Of a stretch of 4,415 bases of DNA, positions 1 through 4,415 are shown one piece after another (within the stretch, counting starts at the first letter, position 1; every line of letters begins with the position of its first letter). This DNA is from a virus. Its lineage: Duplodnaviria; Heunggongvirae; Uroviricota; Caudoviricetes. The stretch is from IMG/VR virus record IMGVR_UViG_2693429662_000010; one strand, 5' to 3'. Position numbers: made by a program.

Positions 1-3000
1 CCTGGTCCCTGACGCATCCGGTGGATGACGCAATTACCCTGCTGACACAGGGCGGCAGACTGACCTGTAAGTTCCGCCTGTCAGGCGCACTGACCAACAA
101 TCAGTTCGGGCTGGGGATTTATCTGTATACGGACGCTCCCGTTCCTGATGGTGTGGCGATGACGGGTACCGGTAATCCGTTCCTGATGTCGTACTTCACT
201 CAGACCACTGACGGCAGAGTGAATCTGATGCATCACAGGAAAGCCGGAAACACGAAGCTGGGGGAGTTCGGCGATTACGGTAACGACTGGCAGACGCTGG
301 AGCTGGTGTTCACCGCCGGCAGTGCCACGGTTACTCCGAAACTGAATGGAGTGGCTGGCCCGGCATTCCAGGTTATAAAAGACAGTCTGACACTGGGACT
401 GAATGCGCTGACGCTGACGGATGTTACAAAAAATGCAGCGTATGGCGTTGAGATAGAAAGTCTGGTGCTGGAGATAAATGCACCGGCATCATCATAAAAA
501 GTGAGCCAGTCAAATGGAAGGTATCGTTAAACTCACCGGTAGTGTCAGTGGGTCGTCTGAGACGCCTGCATGAGTTATCAGAGCCATCAGTACTTAACTG
601 GTGGCTTTTTTTATTGTTGTCAGCTTCCGGATAACGGGAGACGGGGTATGTACCAGATGGAAAAAATCACAACAGGTGTGTCATACACCACGTCAGCGGT
701 GGGGACGGGATACTGGTTACTGCAGCTGCTGGACAAAGTCTCTCCGTCCCAGTGGGTGGCGATAGGTGTGCTGGGGAGTCTGCTGTTTGGCCTGCTGACG
801 TATCTGACAAACCTTTATTTCAAGATTAAAGAAGATAAGCGCAAGGCTGCGAGAGGTGAATAATGCCTCCATCATTACGAAAAGCCGTTGCTGCTGCTAT
901 TGGTGGTGGGGCTGTTGCCATAGCGTCTGTGCTCATCACTGGTCCGAGTGGTGACGATGGCCTGGAAGGTGTCAGCTACATACCATACGAAGATATCGTT
1001 GGCGTATGGACTGTATGTCATGGACACACCGGAAAAGACATCATGCCCGGTAAAACGTATACCGAAGCAGAATGCAAAGCCCTCCTGAATAAAGACCTTG
1101 CCACGGTCGCCAGACAAATTAACCCGTACATCAAAATCGATATACCGGAAACAACGCGCGGCGCTCTTTACTCGTTCGTTTACAACGTGGGCGCTGGCAA
1201 TTTCAGAACATCGACGCTTCTTCGCAAAATAAACCAGGGCGATATCAAAGGCGCATGTGATCAGCTACGGCGCTGGACATACGCTGGCGGTAAGCAATGG
1301 AAAGGGCTGATGACTCGCCGTGAGATTGAGCGTGAAGTCTGTTTGTGGGGGCAACAATGAGCAGAGTAACCGCGATTATCTACGTTCTGGTCATCTGCCT
1401 CATCGTCTGCCTTTCATGGGCTGTTAATCATTACCGTGATAACGCCATCGCCTACAAAGAGCAGCGCGATAAAGCCACATCCATCATCGCTGATATGCAG
1501 AAGCGGCAACGTGATGTAGCAGAACTTGACGCCAGATACACAAAGGAGCTTGCTGATGCTAATGCGACTATCGAAAGTCTCCGTGCTGATGTTTCTGCTG
1601 GGCGTAAGCGCCTGCAAGTCTCCGCCACCTGTGCAAAGTCAACGACCGGAGCCAGCAGCATGGGCGATGGAGAAAGCCCAGGACTTACAGCAGATGCTGA
1701 ACTCAATTATTACCGTCTCCGAGGTGGAATCGACAAGATAACCGCGCAGGTTAACTACCTGCAGGAATACATCAGGACGCAGTGCTTAAAATAATTTTAA
1801 TTTCACTGAAATTTAACAAGTGACTTTCAGGAAAATGCCTCGCAGATGCGGGGCATTTTTGTACCGGTATTTCACCGCGCACCGCAGCGCACAATAAACA
1901 CCGAACCTGACCCTTTGGAATGGGCCTTTGAGGATACCAGTTAGTGCTGGCGAGCCTCGGTGGGCTGGTTTCCTGTGCGGCAAAGGTTCATTTCAAAGAA
2001 GCAGGCAACGCCATGAATGAATTAATTGCGAATCATGACTTCGACTTTCGCCAGTTAGTTACCGCAGCAGAAGGTCAACCGGTAACTGACACCTTCCAGA
2101 TTGCCAGGGCATTTGGTAAACGCCATCAGCATGTGATTAGGGCTATTAAATGTTTGAGATGTTCTGAGGAATTCTCGACAACCCATTTTTGGGCCGTCGA
2201 GAAAATCAATGGCTTAGGTATTTTTGACAAGAAACAGATTTACTACCGCATGGACTTTAGTGGCTTCGTTATGCTGGTTATGGGATTTAACGGGGCAAAA
2301 GCCGATGCTGTTAAAGAAGCCTATATCAATGCGTTTAACTGGATGTCAGCAGAACTCCGTAAGTACAGCGAAAGTTATGAAGCAGAACGTAACGCCGTAA
2401 TGCTGGAGTACATGAAAGAGAAGGATGTCGCCAGCATGTCAGGCCGTCTGCTCAATCGCTGGGGGAGAACGAAAAAACCTCAATTGCTTGCAAAGCTGGA
2501 ACGTCTGGAGAGACAGGGACAGTTTTTATTACCGGGATTCGATAAAGGTATTCAAGCCTGACACATTATGCGCTGTATCGTCGCCGTATTCCCGCATTAA
2601 CCATGACCGTAGCCCGACAGGGAGACTCCTCTGCGCGAGTGTGCGGGGATAATCAAAAACGATACACACCGGGGTTTACCGCGTTAACGGAGCGCGGCGT
2701 TGTCCCCTCATGGTCGCTGGTTCGGTGCGATGGTGGAAGAAACCGGACGATGTGTTACCTCGCAAGACCTGTTATGTCATGTGTCTGATTTGTGATTTAA
2801 GTCGGATAATTGTCGTTGCCATTAAGCAGAGGATTGATGGCCGACAGGGTGGCATTGTTAGAATAAGACTTATTCTTATCTGTGCCGGGAATGAAAATGA
2901 AAAGAAATCTTCCGTTAATTATTTTGTTGTCTTCTCTGGTTATGGGCTGTACGCAACATAAAACAGATATGCCCCGACAGTTGGTTAAGGCATTACCACA

Positions 3001-4415
3001 ATATCCGGCCTATGCAGCGGCAAATTATATAAAGGGACGGGTTGATGTGAAGTTTGATATTGGTGCTGATGGTACTGTCACCCGAATTGAGTTTATCCGT
3101 TCAGAGCCGCACCATCTGTTTGATGAGCAGGTTGTAAAGGCGATGGCAAAATGGCGATTTGAGAAGGACAGGCCGCGTAAAGGCGTGAAGAAAACGTTTA
3201 TCTTTAGTCCTTCTGCACCCTGATTATTTCATCAGAAATTAATTATCACTCTGTTGTTATTCTGTACATTCCGGCTGGGTAAGTCTTGTTCCGCCGGGTA
3301 TGAAGATGAAATATTGTTGGAGGACAGTGGGTACCTGCTCCTGTAACCGAACGTTCATTTCTCGTTATTTGTCATGCTGGCCGGACGCAGATGCGTTGCA
3401 TCTGTTGCCAGCCTTCTCCTGCAGGCTTCAATAACCCACGCTGAAAAGTTACCGGAACCTTTATGTTCAAGGGCGATATTGATCTGTTCAATCATGTGAT
3501 TGGGGAAACGGATATTGCGGATTGTGGTTCTGCGGGTCCGGTTTTTCGATGACATTTTCTTTCCTCTGGTGACAAGCTATATGGAGAGGATTTTACATGG
3601 CTGTGCTTCGTACGTTACCGGGCAGAATCAAAACTCTGAACACCCGGCGGGTGAATGTCCTGAAGGGTGAACAGCGTCGGGTCAGTGGTAGTGCCCGGGT
3701 TTCCCTCAAGCGTCGTATCTGGCTGAGGGATGCCGGACAGTGCTGTCTCTGTGGGCGTGTGGTTGACCTTTGTGACAGTGAACTTGAGCACCGCATTGCA
3801 CTTCAGTTCGGTGGTGGTAATGAGGAGACGAATCTCTGGACGCTCTGTACCGAATGCCATCGACAAAAGTCTGCTCGTGAAGCGGCGAGTGGTATGCCAG
3901 ACCCGACGCTGCCGGAGGTGTCCGGAGGTAGTGGCAGAGCGGACGACATCATCGGACTGTAACCCGACCCGGGGGGGGGTATCATCCGGCGTAAAAAAAG
4001 ATCGCTTTGGACACCGCCCCCCCTCTCACGCAGAGAAAAAATTCCCGTTTCAGGGCAGTTAACATGTTAACTGGCTGTCCGGGCATTTTTGCGGTTTTTA
4101 TCTTTATTATTCAGTTTGTTGTGCGGAAAAAATGTTAACTGGCTTTTTCAGCAAATGTTAACCAGGCAGCAGTTAACATTTGCGGCATGAGACGCCGGGA
4201 AAAATGGGCTGAACCATACCCGGCTGAGTGCGTTATGGACCCGGGAGGAGGCTGTGCTGACAACGCAAAAACGAAAATTTGCGCTGGCGCTCATGTCCGG
4301 GAAAAACAAAACAGCGTCAGCCATTGCCGTAATGCCAGTCAGTTAAGCAACTGACTGGCTCTTTTTCGGGGCTGTGGGGTATTTCCAGGGCCTCTCCTTT
4401 ACCACTCTCGGGAAG

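What the first reader, a model, noticed from the sequence alone, without database searches (positions are those of the whole stretch)
1861..3596. Three-gene accessory island between the spanins and the HNH/packaging genes
Between the terminator closing the lysis cassette (1832-1860) and the HNH gene (3597) lie three unrelated small genes with separate signals: rha (+), the TonB-domain lipoprotein (+) after a ~330-bp non-coding gap, and an RHH protein on the opposite strand convergent with the lipoprotein gene. In lambda this position holds only bor. Mixed orientation and independent regulatory signals are typical of moron-type accessory cargo, which is where prophages commonly keep host-benefit, exclusion and defence functions.
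Basis: partly seen in the sequence, partly recalled or inferred. Interest (0 to 1): 0.5.

Follow-up and report, generated by a model that had tools for sequence, protein, structure and literature searches.

The report
Mosaic cargo slots after lysis genes
Between the lysis and DNA-packaging genes of a lambda-like E. coli prophage lie two swappable gene slots and one small conserved regulator gene; this is ordinary phage mosaicism, but one slot holds an untested lipoprotein copy of the TonB tip that may block entry of other phages and colicins.

Summary
A strong terminator (1829-1862) closes the lysis cassette. After it come rha (2013-2561), a 330-bp gap, a TonB_C lipoprotein gene (2897-3223), a convergent YlcI/YnfO gene (3555-3355, minus strand) and HNH (3597).

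- **Slot 1** holds an allelic series: Rha, KilA-N or P22_AR_N, each with an ORF11CD3 tail; a 74-aa ORF; or nothing.
- **Spacer 2541-2749** is conserved backbone, present in at least 3144 of 5426 E. coli genomes.
- **Slot 2 (2750-3344)** is a 0.6-kb AT-rich module flanked by a 9-bp imperfect repeat. It occurs in 417 of 5426 genomes and 31 of 72 HNH-type relatives, and the slot can be empty or hold other cargo.
- **ylcI** is not cargo. It lies next to HNH in 80 of 80 relatives, and phage lambda has an unannotated copy.

The TonB_C lipoprotein is about 39% identical to the E. coli TonB tip and is under purifying selection (dN/dS 0.13). It is also found in phage 21 and Stx1a phages. Diverged homologues sit just after the spanin genes in other phages. 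My best guess, inferred and not shown, is an outer-membrane Ton-box decoy that excludes TonB-dependent phages and colicins.

Overall this is a known kind of feature, with one gene worth testing.

The parts
1829..1862 (+). Intrinsic terminator that closes the holin-endolysin-Rz/Rz1 cassette. It is presumably read through by Q-modified polymerase.
   Evidence: Inverted repeat I10, 13-nt arms, 92% complementary. Fold -20.2 kcal/mol, z = -4.37, followed by a U-run. Read-through by Q is inferred from lambda biology.
1898..2012 (+). Shared GC-rich leader of the slot-1 cassettes, common to the Rha and KilA-N alleles.
   Evidence: 95% identical to phage JLK-2012 up to window 2017, although the ORF that follows is KilA-N. 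No sigma-70-like site found. GC of 1861-2012 is 55.9%.
2013..2561 (+). Slot-1 cargo: rha, an antirepressor-like regulator with a Phage_pRha N-domain and an ORF11CD3 C-domain. RefSeq relatives are annotated from GTG 1944.
   Evidence: Pfam and NCBIfam hits. PHROG 518 'Rha-like transcriptional regulator'. The ATG aligns with the KilA-N ATG in JLK-2012. Alternative slot-1 occupants were found.
2541..2749 (.). Conserved backbone spacer between slot 1 and slot 2. It is non-coding as far as can be seen, and its function is unknown.
   Evidence: Present whatever the neighbouring genes are. Found in 65 of 72 HNH-type loci. A query that includes it hits 8054 places in 3144 of 5426 genomes. No Rfam match and no structure signal. 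Frame-breaking indels occur among copies.
2741..2749 (.). Left copy of the 9-bp imperfect direct repeat (AACCGGACG) that flanks the TonB module.
   Evidence: The empty-site allele in CP148357 aligns to both 2741-2749 and 3345-3353. Sequences printed; junctions shown.
2750..3344 (+). Slot-2 cargo module (moron-like): promoter-like region, TonB_C lipoprotein gene and 3' tail.
   Evidence: Present or absent as a block. Found in 417 of 5426 genomes and 31 of 72 HNH-type loci. GC 42.9%.
2856..2864 (+). Extended -10-like element TGTTAGAAT, 32 nt upstream of ATG 2897. This is a predicted promoter, not a demonstrated one.
   Evidence: Conserved as TGTyAGAAT in clade-B loci, where the surrounding non-coding DNA is only about 56% identical. 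The overlapping palindrome 2860-2876 is not conserved.
2897..3223 (+). TonB C-terminal-domain lipoprotein, 108 aa. Signal peptide and lipobox are aa 1-18, with Cys18 at 2948-2950. The TonB_C domain is aa 26-104 (2972-3208).
   Evidence: Pfam TonB_C. PDB TonB CTD chains E = 3e-16, about 39% identity. Fold-search top hits are all TonB CTDs. Lipobox match. dN/dS 0.13 against clade B.
3345..3353 (.). Right copy of the 9-bp imperfect direct repeat (AACCGAACG).
3355..3555 (-). ylcI/ynfO-family gene (DUF3950, 66 aa). It is probably an Arc/Mnt-like ribbon-helix-helix protein. It is a backbone gene, antisense to the late transcript.
   Evidence: Pfam and NCBIfam hits. Adjacent to HNH in 80 of 80 loci. 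Homologues in DLP12 and lambda. N-terminal 50 aa nearly invariant. Weak but consistent RHH evidence.
3597..3962 (+). HNH endonuclease gene of the packaging module, which bounds the interval on the right.
   Evidence: Pfam HNH; PHROG 589; annotated as HNH followed by TerS and TerL in relatives.

Best explanation
The interval 1861-3596 is a mosaic junction in the late operon of a lambdoid, Stx-phage-like E. coli prophage. It is not a single island. It consists of four pieces that are inherited separately.

1. **Slot 1**, just after the Rz terminator, holds rha. This is one allele of an antirepressor-like series (Rha, KilA-N or P22_AR_N N-domains, all with an ORF11CD3 C-domain). The slot can instead hold unrelated small ORFs or be empty.
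2. **A conserved 0.2-kb backbone spacer** of unknown role.
3. **Slot 2** holds a 0.6-kb AT-rich module that encodes a lipoprotein made of little more than a TonB C-terminal domain.
4. **ylcI**, a small Arc/Mnt-like DNA-binding protein gene, belongs to the conserved backbone just upstream of the packaging genes. It is read against the late transcript.

How it most likely works (inferred):
- Q-antiterminated late transcription reads through the terminator, so it expresses rha and the lipoprotein late in infection.
- The lipoprotein probably also has its own extended -10 promoter that is active in lysogens.
- There its TonB-like domain would bind the Ton boxes of TonB-dependent transporters, and of incoming group B colicins. 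It has no membrane anchor or ExbBD coupling, so it could not energise them.
- It would therefore compete with TonB and exclude TonB-dependent phages and colicins.
- ylcI would be expressed only when late transcription is off, and it acts as a repressor of an unknown target.
For: **Architecture (shown).**
- Block-wise presence and absence appears in pairwise comparisons.
- Slot-1 states among about 128 related loci were: empty 37, 74-aa ORF 53, Rha about 15, KilA-N about 8, a 76-aa minus-strand ORF 11, and others.
- Rha, KilA-N and P22_AR_N all carry ORF11CD3.
- Slot-2 states were empty, the TonB module, or two other AT-rich cargos.
- The TonB module is in 417 of 5426 genomes, rha in 357, and ylcI DNA in 1464 genomes at 4455 places. 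The rha-TonB adjacency occurs in only 71 genomes.
- ylcI lies next to HNH in 80 of 80 loci, whereas the TonB module is present in 31 of 72.
- ylcI is also present in DLP12 and in lambda.
- Cargo GC is 43-45% against 56-58% for the backbone.

**Lipoprotein (shown).**
- TonB_C domain.
- 39% identical to TonB residues 153-231, with Y163, P164, F180, F202, W213 and F230 conserved.
- Fold-search hits are all TonB CTDs, including the BtuB and FhuA complexes.
- Lipobox present, and residue +2 is never Asp in 11 family members.
- dN/dS is 0.13.
- The same gene is found in phage 21, Stx1a phages and a Klebsiella phage.
- A -10-like element is conserved upstream.

**Mechanism (established knowledge plus inference).**
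- Overexpressed periplasmic TonB domain inhibits TonB-dependent import (Howard et al. 2001, as cited in PMC9841981).
- T5 Llp is an outer-membrane inner-leaflet lipoprotein that blocks FhuA from the periplasmic side (bioRxiv 2026.03.26.714494).

**ylcI.** The K-12 pair ybcW-ylcI is transcribed as a convergent excludon in uninduced cells (PMC12288877).
Against: - No expression, localisation or binding data exist for the lipoprotein. Seven literature searches found no study of it (those aimed at it).
- TonB Q160 and R166, which contact transporters, are not conserved. They are Leu/Tyr and Tyr in the lipoprotein clades.
- A constitutive Ton-box decoy would also starve the lysogen of iron and vitamin B12, so expression would have to be low or conditional. 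No Fur box was found.
- PADLOC has no model for the protein.
- Diverged homologues always lie directly after the spanin genes on the same strand. This could point to a role linked to lysis or to late infection instead.
- The promoter is only a consensus match, and there is no terminator after the gene.
- The structure model is of low confidence (pLDDT 56).
- The RHH assignment for YlcI rests on non-significant fold hits and a weak in-register hhalign match to Arc.
- The loci sampled are the 80 best hits per query, not a random sample.
Confidence: 0.6

Rival explanations
1. One reading: rha, the lipoprotein gene and the RHH gene form one accessory (moron-type) island. It was acquired and kept as a unit, and the RHH protein regulates the other two.
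For: All three lie between the lysis terminator and HNH and show mixed orientation. One IMG/VR contig (L004) has the identical arrangement at 99.9% identity. Arc and Mnt regulate an antirepressor gene in P22 (from memory).
Against: The three pieces assort independently. ylcI was present in 80 of 80 loci, whatever slot 1 holds (including when it is empty) and whether or not the TonB module is present. The rha-TonB adjacency occurs in only 71 of 5426 genomes. No complete genome holds at least 80% of the window with all three genes. ylcI is present in lambda and DLP12, which have neither rha nor the TonB gene.
Confidence: 0.05
2. The TonB_C lipoprotein is a lysis-associated factor: a spanin-like or spanin-assisting outer-membrane lipoprotein that acts at the envelope during lysis.
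For: PHROG 1267, which it matches over its full length (E = 2.6e-42), is labelled 'Rz-like spanin'. In four diverged lineages the gene lies directly downstream of the spanin genes on the same strand. It is a predicted outer-membrane lipoprotein, as o-spanins are.
Against: Each of these phages already has a complete i-spanin/o-spanin pair. The window's Rz and Rz1 fall in other PHROGs, 13 and 3198. The gene is missing from 41 of 72 closely related HNH-type prophages, so it is not needed for lysis. The expert-curated phage 21 record lists it separately from the spanins. It is a globular TonB domain, unlike o-spanins, which I recall (from memory, not tested here) as short proline-rich chains.
Confidence: 0.12
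3. The lipoprotein is a host-benefit envelope factor that has nothing to do with Ton-box competition. For example, it could be a peptidoglycan or envelope tether, or a Bor-like virulence or serum-resistance factor. It could also be a modulator that binds another periplasmic partner, as FusB binds ferredoxin.
For: It occupies the same region as bor in lambda and phage 21. It is enriched in STEC/EHEC genomes, including O157:H7. TonB-like CTDs can bind other ligands; the FusB-ferredoxin complex 9hi3 is among the fold hits. The contact residues Q160 and R166 are not conserved.
Against: The residues that are conserved are those of the TonB core and the YP motif. The closest solved relatives by sequence are enterobacterial (E. 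coli and Salmonella) TonB itself. A short 8-residue tether places the domain at the periplasmic face of the outer membrane, where Ton boxes emerge (inference).
Confidence: 0.18
4. The interval is decaying junk in a defective prophage, and none of the three genes is functional any longer.
For: terS in this window is interrupted by IS4 at 4330. Many clade-B lipoprotein variants carry frameshifted C-termini. ylcI is truncated in some Nu1-type loci.
Against: All three ORFs are intact here. The lipoprotein gene shows dN/dS 0.13, and 414 of the 417 matches cover at least 80% of the module. The N-terminal 50 aa of YlcI are nearly invariant among the 27 sequences aligned, out of 775 homologues found. 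The same genes are carried by viable phages: 21, JLK-2012 and Stx1a phages.
Confidence: 0.05

Closest known systems
Lambda bor (and the lom-type 'morons' of Hendrix and Juhala) at the lysis-packaging junction
   Same: The position is the same, downstream of Rz/Rz1 and upstream of cos and terminase. The gene is small and AT-rich, encodes an envelope lipoprotein, and is present or absent among otherwise similar phages. Phage 21 carries both bor and the clade-B TonB_C gene here.
   Different: bor is on the opposite strand and is known (from memory) to be expressed in lysogens. The TonB_C gene is co-oriented with the late transcript, has only a predicted promoter and has no terminator. The two proteins are unrelated.
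T5 Llp and the Cor proteins of phi80, N15 and HK022 (superinfection-exclusion lipoproteins acting on FhuA)
   Same: [quoted passage not shown] They act on a TonB-dependent transporter from the periplasmic side. The topology predicted for the TonB_C lipoprotein is the same.
   Different: Llp and Cor are specific to FhuA and have their own folds. The TonB_C lipoprotein would act generically on any Ton box, at the energy-coupling step. No sequence relationship was seen or tested, and no exclusion phenotype is known.
Engineered periplasmic TonB fragments (Howard, Herrmann, Stratilo and Braun 2001)
   Same: These are TonB C-terminal domains lacking the membrane anchor and delivered to the periplasm. 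They are reported to inhibit TonB-dependent transport (cited in PMC9841981). From memory, they also inhibit phi80 infection and colicin M killing. The phage protein covers TonB residues 153-231.
   Different: The phage protein is natural, lipid-anchored, only 39% identical to TonB, and has lost Q160 and R166. The original paper could not be read here.
E. coli K-12 DLP12 ybcW-ylcI-nohD, Qin ynfO-nohA, and the lambda right end
   Same: The backbone order is the same: lysis genes, variable genes, a plus-strand small gene convergent with ylcI on the minus strand, then the terminase small subunit. ybcW-ylcI is transcribed as a convergent excludon.
   Different: The variable genes differ (borD, ybcV and ybcW against rha and the TonB_C gene). 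The terminase is Nu1-type and has no HNH. The 2541-2749 spacer is absent from DLP12. The sequence upstream of ylcI is unrelated.
P22 immI: Arc and Mnt (RHH repressors) with the Ant antirepressor
   Same: YlcI shares the N-x-R-x-P strand motif and aligns in register with Arc and Mnt. Slot 1 holds antirepressor-like genes, including one allele with a P22_AR_N domain.
   Different: ylcI is present whether or not slot 1 is filled. It is not adjacent to slot 1 and is not in an operon with it. No operator was identified.

Membership tests
Moron (independently acquired extra gene in a phage late region) | Present or absent as a discrete block between otherwise closely related phages | tested here: met
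   TonB module: a 595-bp block missing from CP148357 and from 41 of 72 HNH-type loci. The rha ORF is swapped exactly for KilA-N, and slot 1 is empty in 37 loci. ylcI does NOT meet this feature (80 of 80).
Moron (independently acquired extra gene in a phage late region) | Base composition different from the flanking phage genes | tested here: met
   GC is 42.9% for the TonB module and 44.6% for rha, against 58.0% for the spacer, 55.9% for the leader and 57.1% for HNH.
Moron (independently acquired extra gene in a phage late region) | Own promoter and own terminator flanking the gene | tested here: inconclusive
   TonB gene: an extended -10-like TGTTAGAAT is conserved in clade B, but the consensus scan reports no full promoter and there is no convincing terminator downstream (z = -1.1). 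rha: no promoter-like site found.
Moron (independently acquired extra gene in a phage late region) | Expressed from the repressed prophage | not testable with these tools
   No transcriptome for this element. The only indirect evidence is transcription of the K-12 pair ybcW-ylcI (PMC12288877).
TonB C-terminal domain (Pfam PF03544) | Profile match above the curated threshold | tested here: met
   56 bits against a cut-off of 24.6. TIGR01352 gives 56.5 bits against 27.1. PDB TonB CTDs match at E = 3e-16.
TonB C-terminal domain (Pfam PF03544) | alpha-beta-beta-alpha-beta fold with the YP motif and the conserved aromatic cluster | tested here: met
   The model has the topology H36-42, E47-55, E61-70, H77-90, E98-103, though pLDDT is only 56. 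The Foldseek top 8 hits are all TonB or FusB CTDs with probability 1.00. Y163, P164, F180, F202, W213 and F230 are conserved.
TonB energy transducer (full-length TonB, NCBIfam PRK10819 equivalogs) | N-terminal transmembrane anchor that couples to ExbB/ExbD, plus a proline-rich periplasmic spacer | tested here: not met
   The protein is 108 aa: a lipoprotein signal peptide, an 8-residue tether and the domain. Equivalog scores of 50-73 bits are far below the cut-offs of 265-448. It is therefore not a TonB.
Bacterial outer-membrane lipoprotein | Signal peptide with a lipobox ending in Cys, and residue +2 not Asp | tested here: met
   IILLSSLVMGC matches the PROSITE-type pattern. Residue +2 is Thr. 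The lipobox Cys is kept in 11 of 12 diverged short homologues, with +2 being S, T, A or V. Actual lipidation and sorting were not tested.
o-spanin (Rz1-like), as the PHROG 1267 label suggests | Partner of the i-spanin, and the only outer-membrane lipoprotein of the lysis cassette | tested here: not met
   The window has its own Rz1 embedded in Rz (Pfam Rz1 E = 4e-20, PHROG 3198), and Rz falls in PHROG 13. Distant carriers also have full spanin pairs. The gene is dispensable among close relatives.
YlcI/YnfO family (DUF3950, NF041551) | Profile match above the curated threshold | tested here: met
   Pfam gives 71.7 bits against 25. NCBIfam gives 35.3 against 30. 775 homologues were found, and the N-terminal 50 aa are nearly invariant among the 27 aligned.
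Ribbon-helix-helix (Arc/MetJ) DNA-binding fold | N-terminal beta-strand followed by two helices, with significant similarity to known RHH proteins | tested here: inconclusive
   The model has an extended N-terminus plus helices H19-32 and H34-55, pLDDT 72. All 11 Foldseek hits are RHH or RHH-like proteins (ParD2, TCP, Arc) but with E of at least 2.3. hhalign is in register with Arc (E = 0.021) and Mnt (E = 0.18) but not with CopG. No RHH Pfam family was hit, even at E up to 10.
Rha family regulator (PF09669 / TIGR02681) | Profile match above the curated threshold | tested here: met
   75 bits against 29.9 and 72.6 against 45.95. There is also a C-terminal ORF11CD3 domain at 81.9 bits.
Llp/Cor-type superinfection-exclusion lipoproteins | Binds the periplasmic face of a receptor and blocks phage infection | not testable with these tools
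   The resemblance is in predicted topology only. There are no binding or plating data.

The most novel reading that the evidence does not exclude
The TonB-tip lipoprotein is a new class of phage-encoded exclusion or immunity factor. It would be a generic outer-membrane-anchored Ton-box cap that uncouples TonB-dependent transporters from TonB. In this way it would protect lysogens, or cells late in infection, against all TonB-dependent phages, group B colicins and microcins at once, instead of blocking one receptor as Llp and Cor do. The family would be spread through lambdoid phages of E. coli (phage 21, Stx1a phages, O157:H7 prophage CP-933N) and Klebsiella, always just after the spanin genes.
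Probability: 0.35. Interest if true: 0.65.

Novelty: new member of a known kind. Interest (0 to 1): 0.4.

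Why it matters
The result turns a vague 'accessory island' into a precise map. There are two recombination slots with defined boundaries, a conserved spacer, and a backbone gene (ylcI) that even the phage lambda record leaves unannotated.

The practical gain is one cheap, testable hypothesis. A natural lipid-anchored TonB C-terminal domain is carried by the classical phage 21, by Stx1a-converting phages and by EHEC prophages. It may blunt TonB-dependent entry of phages, colicins and microcins, at some cost in iron uptake. 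That would bear on competition among gut E. coli, on colicin- or phage-based control of STEC, and on sideromycin susceptibility.

If the hypothesis is false, the region is ordinary lambdoid mosaicism.

Tried and rejected
- **Fur box at the lipoprotein promoter.** The palindrome AGAATAAG-A-CTTATTCT (2860-2876) matches the 19-bp Fur consensus at only 12-13 of 19 positions. Three other sites in the window score the same. The palindrome is also deleted in clade B. Rejected.
- **Structured RNA or sRNA in the 330-bp gap.** There was no Rfam match at E up to 1. Fold z-scores were -0.6 to +0.9 on both strands. Frame-breaking indels argue against a hidden ORF. The spacer's conservation remains unexplained.
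- **Bidirectional terminator between the convergent genes.** Not supported (z = -1.1 and -1.4).
- **Known defence system.** PADLOC gave nothing for rha, the lipoprotein or YlcI.
- **PHROG label 'Rz-like spanin' for the lipoprotein.** Judged a mislabel.
- **Literature.** Seven searches found no study of the lipoprotein or of YlcI function. Howard et al. 2001 could not be opened. The EDL933 proteome and RpoS papers gave no data on the gene.
- **Species-representative genome scan.** It returned a single 418-bp contig, filed under an actinomycete and probably contamination. The method finds only close relatives.
- **Shared ylcI promoter or operator.** None is conserved between the HNH-type and the lambda/DLP12-type contexts; homology starts at the ATG.
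- **Structure of the lipoprotein.** Confidence is low (pLDDT 56), so it was used only for topology.

Full report
**What the window is.** The 4415-bp window is the late region of a lambdoid E. coli prophage.
- Its closest phage-record match (77% of the window at 96% identity) is phage JLK-2012; Stx-converting phages match about 58% at 93-95%.
- The gene order is as follows:
  - C-terminus of a NanS-p-type esterase (21-497);
  - S21-type pinholin (657-863);
  - SAR endolysin (863-1360);
  - Rz (1345-1794) with Rz1 embedded (1526-1741);
  - the interval in question;
  - HNH (3597-3962);
  - a cos-like region;
  - the start of terS (4254).
- From 4330 the window is the end of an IS4 element inserted in terS.

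**Check of the observation.**
- The terminator is strong. It has 13-nt arms that are 92% complementary, a fold energy of -20.2 kcal/mol, z = -4.4 and a U-run.
- rha has a Phage_pRha domain plus an ORF11CD3 domain.
- The gap between rha and the next gene is 329-335 bp.
- The next gene encodes a 108-aa protein with a lipobox (IILLSSLVMGC) and a TonB_C domain (E = 5.5e-15).
- The 66-aa minus-strand gene belongs to the YlcI/YnfO (DUF3950) family.
- Whether YlcI is a ribbon-helix-helix protein is probable but not proven.
  - The model is an extended N-terminus followed by two helices.
  - All fold hits are RHH-type, but none is significant.
  - hhalign places the conserved N-I-R-F-P strand in register with Arc (E = 0.02) and Mnt.
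  - No RHH Pfam family is hit.

**The interval is four pieces, not one island.** Pairwise comparisons show block-wise mosaicism.
- A Korean human isolate (CP148357) is 99.5% identical through rha and up to 2749. It then lacks 2750-3344 and resumes at 3345.
- Phage JLK-2012 shares 1898-2017 and 2541-4329 but has a KilA-N gene in place of rha, starting at the same ATG (2013).
- A chicken isolate (CP148423) lacks rha, keeps the TonB module and a truncated ylcI, and has a lambda-type terminase without HNH.
- I then collected about 150 related loci from IMG/VR, anchored either on HNH or on the lipoprotein, and classified them.

**Slot 1 (from the Rz stop to 2541).**
- It is empty in 37 loci and holds a 74-aa ORF in 53.
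- It holds a 76-aa minus-strand ORF in 11, Rha in about 15, KilA-N plus an 85-aa ORF in about 8, and other genes in the rest.
- Rha, KilA-N and a P22_AR_N protein found in related loci all end in the same ORF11CD3 domain.
- rha is therefore one allele of a domain-shuffled antirepressor-like series.
- The series shares a GC-rich leader (1898-2012) in which no promoter-like site is found.

**The spacer (2541-2749).**
- It is present whatever lies on either side of it.
- A query containing it matches 8054 places in 3144 of 5426 complete genomes.
- It has no Rfam match, no fold signal and no conserved ORF.
- Between the two lipoprotein clades it is 80% identical. The neighbouring non-coding DNA is 56% identical and third codon positions are 53% identical.
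- Its role is unexplained. It may be a recombination linker, or it may be a cis element.

**Slot 2 (2750-3344).**
- Its states are empty, the TonB module, or two other AT-rich cargos.
- The module is bounded by a 9-bp imperfect direct repeat, AACCGGACG and AACCGAACG.
- Its right edge abuts the ylcI stop codon. Other cargos replace the last 15 codons of ylcI. This explains why YlcI C-terminal tails vary while the first 50 residues are nearly invariant.

**ylcI behaves as backbone.**
- It lies next to HNH in 80 of 80 HNH-anchored loci, whereas the TonB module is present in 31 of 72.
- It follows the lipoprotein gene in 75 of 78 lipoprotein-anchored loci.
- It sits upstream of nohD in K-12 DLP12.
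- An intact 64-aa copy lies unannotated in phage lambda at 48109-48303 on the complementary strand.

**Counts in complete genomes.**
- TonB module: 417 of 5426 genomes.
- rha at 80% coverage or more: 357 genomes.
- ylcI DNA: 1464 genomes at 4455 places.
- rha-spacer-TonB adjacency: 71 genomes.
- No complete genome holds the whole window arrangement. One IMG/VR contig does (L004, 99.9% identity).
- The window itself looks like a recombinant. Its left part is closest to CP148357. Its ylcI segment is 100% identical to CP193495, which is also 99.3% identical over the 59% of the window it matches.
- Cargo GC is 43-45% against 56-58% for the backbone.

**The TonB_C lipoprotein.**
- Residues 26-104 align with E. 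coli TonB 153-231 at 39% identity.
- The YP motif and the aromatic residues F180, F202, W213 and F230 are conserved. Q160 and R166 are not.
- The AlphaFold model is of low confidence, but it has the alpha-beta-beta-alpha-beta order. Its best PDB matches are all TonB-type C-terminal domains, including those bound to BtuB and FhuA.
- The protein lacks the TonB membrane anchor and proline-rich spacer, and it fails the full-length TonB equivalog cut-offs.
- A second clade, 71% identical, sits in the same slot of Nu1-type prophages and of classical phage 21, downstream of bor.
- dN/dS between the two clades is 0.13.
- An exhaustive profile search found further short lipoprotein-type homologues at 33-49% identity, each with a lipobox and a non-Asp residue at +2.
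- In IMG/VR and in a Klebsiella phage, the two diverged loci read in detail and the annotated phage record place these homologues on the same strand just downstream of the spanin genes, with packaging genes further downstream. Each of these phages has a complete i-spanin/o-spanin pair.
- The PHROG label 'Rz-like spanin' for this family is therefore probably wrong.
- Upstream of the gene, TGTyAGAAT (2856-2864) is conserved between the clades, although the surrounding DNA is not.

**Most likely mechanism (inferred).**
- From lambda biology, one Q-antiterminated transcript must cross this whole region to reach the packaging and head genes. Every plus-strand gene here is therefore expressed late, and ylcI is antisense to that transcript.
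- In K-12 the equivalent pair ybcW-ylcI is transcribed convergently in uninduced cells (PMC12288877).
- For the lipoprotein I commit to a Ton-box decoy.
  - Anchored in the inner leaflet of the outer membrane by an 8-residue tether, the TonB-like domain would pair with transporter Ton boxes through strand beta3. This is the binding mode seen for TonB itself (PMC11658791).
  - It has no coupling to ExbBD, so it would compete with TonB.
  - Overexpressed periplasmic TonB domain is reported to inhibit TonB-dependent import (Howard et al. 2001, cited in PMC9841981). From memory, it also inhibits phi80 infection and colicin M killing.
  - T5 Llp is a precedent for an inner-leaflet lipoprotein that acts on FhuA.
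- I put this mechanism at about 0.35-0.4.
- The main rivals are a role late in infection or in lysis, suggested by the constant position after the spanin genes, and an unrelated envelope function.

**Comparison and verdict.**
- The region is a textbook lambdoid mosaic junction of the kind that holds bor in lambda.
- All three genes already carry RefSeq family names.
Its 'three-gene island' reading is partly supported: two of the three genes are cargo in separate slots, and the third is backbone.
- Novelty is modest: a new member of a known kind.
- The lipoprotein is uncharacterised in the searchable literature and is easy to test.

Noticed in passing
window 4330-4415 (terS starts at 4254): The end of an IS4 element (terminal repeat TAATGCCAGTCAGTTAAG from 4330) interrupts the terminase small-subunit gene after about 25 codons. 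Homology to all relatives stops at 4329. The prophage in this host is probably packaging-defective.
   Followed up: partly
L207 3110-3304 minus strand (phage lambda NC_001416.1, 48109-48303 complement): Phage lambda has an intact 64-aa YlcI/YnfO-family ORF about 200 bp from its right end. It is 86% identical to the window protein over the first 52 residues. It is not annotated in the RefSeq record.
   Followed up: yes
window 2541-2749: This is a conserved, apparently non-coding 0.2-kb spacer between the two cargo slots. A query spanning it matches 8054 places in 3144 of 5426 E. coli genomes. Across lipoprotein clades it is more conserved (80%) than neighbouring neutral sites (53-56%). No RNA family, structure signal or ORF explains it.
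   Followed up: partly
window 3963-4253: This is a cos-like region between HNH and terS. It has G/C runs (3966-3979, 4013-4022) and four copies of AAATGTTAAC(TGGCT) in direct and inverted orientation (4056-4183). These may be terminase small-subunit binding sites.
   Followed up: no
window 2013-2561; loci L043, L074 and others: The alternative occupants of slot 1 (Rha, KilA-N, P22_AR_N) all share a C-terminal ORF11CD3 domain. The slot therefore holds a domain-shuffled allelic series, not unrelated genes.
   Followed up: partly
L010 about 2915-3376; L015 and L070 about 2533-2778: Two other AT-rich cargos occupy slot 2 in place of the TonB module. One has a short ORF for a hydrophobic peptide of about 46 aa. 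These cargos also replace the last 15 codons of ylcI.
   Followed up: no
PHROG 1267 (matched by window 2897-3223): The PHROG family containing the TonB_C lipoproteins is labelled 'Rz-like spanin'. This appears to be a mislabel that could spread through automated phage annotation.
   Followed up: yes
L207 about 3440-3465 and L156 about 5085-5110 (upstream of ylcI in lambda and DLP12): The sequence GTGATAATGATTATCATC, about 150 nt upstream of ylcI in lambda and DLP12, resembles a Fur box (about 15 of 19 positions to the consensus, by eye). It is not present in the window.
   Followed up: no
proteins P0010, P0012, P0013, P0018, P0019, P0021 (clade-B lipoprotein variants): Several clade-B variants have frameshifted C-termini that would remove strand beta3. 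This suggests decay in some cryptic prophages, or assembly errors.
   Followed up: no
L157 (NZ_SJEX01000172.1, Modestobacter excelsi assembly, 418 bp): A 418-bp contig in an actinomycete assembly encodes a clade-B-like lipoprotein fragment (70% identity). It is probably contamination from enterobacterial DNA.
   Followed up: no
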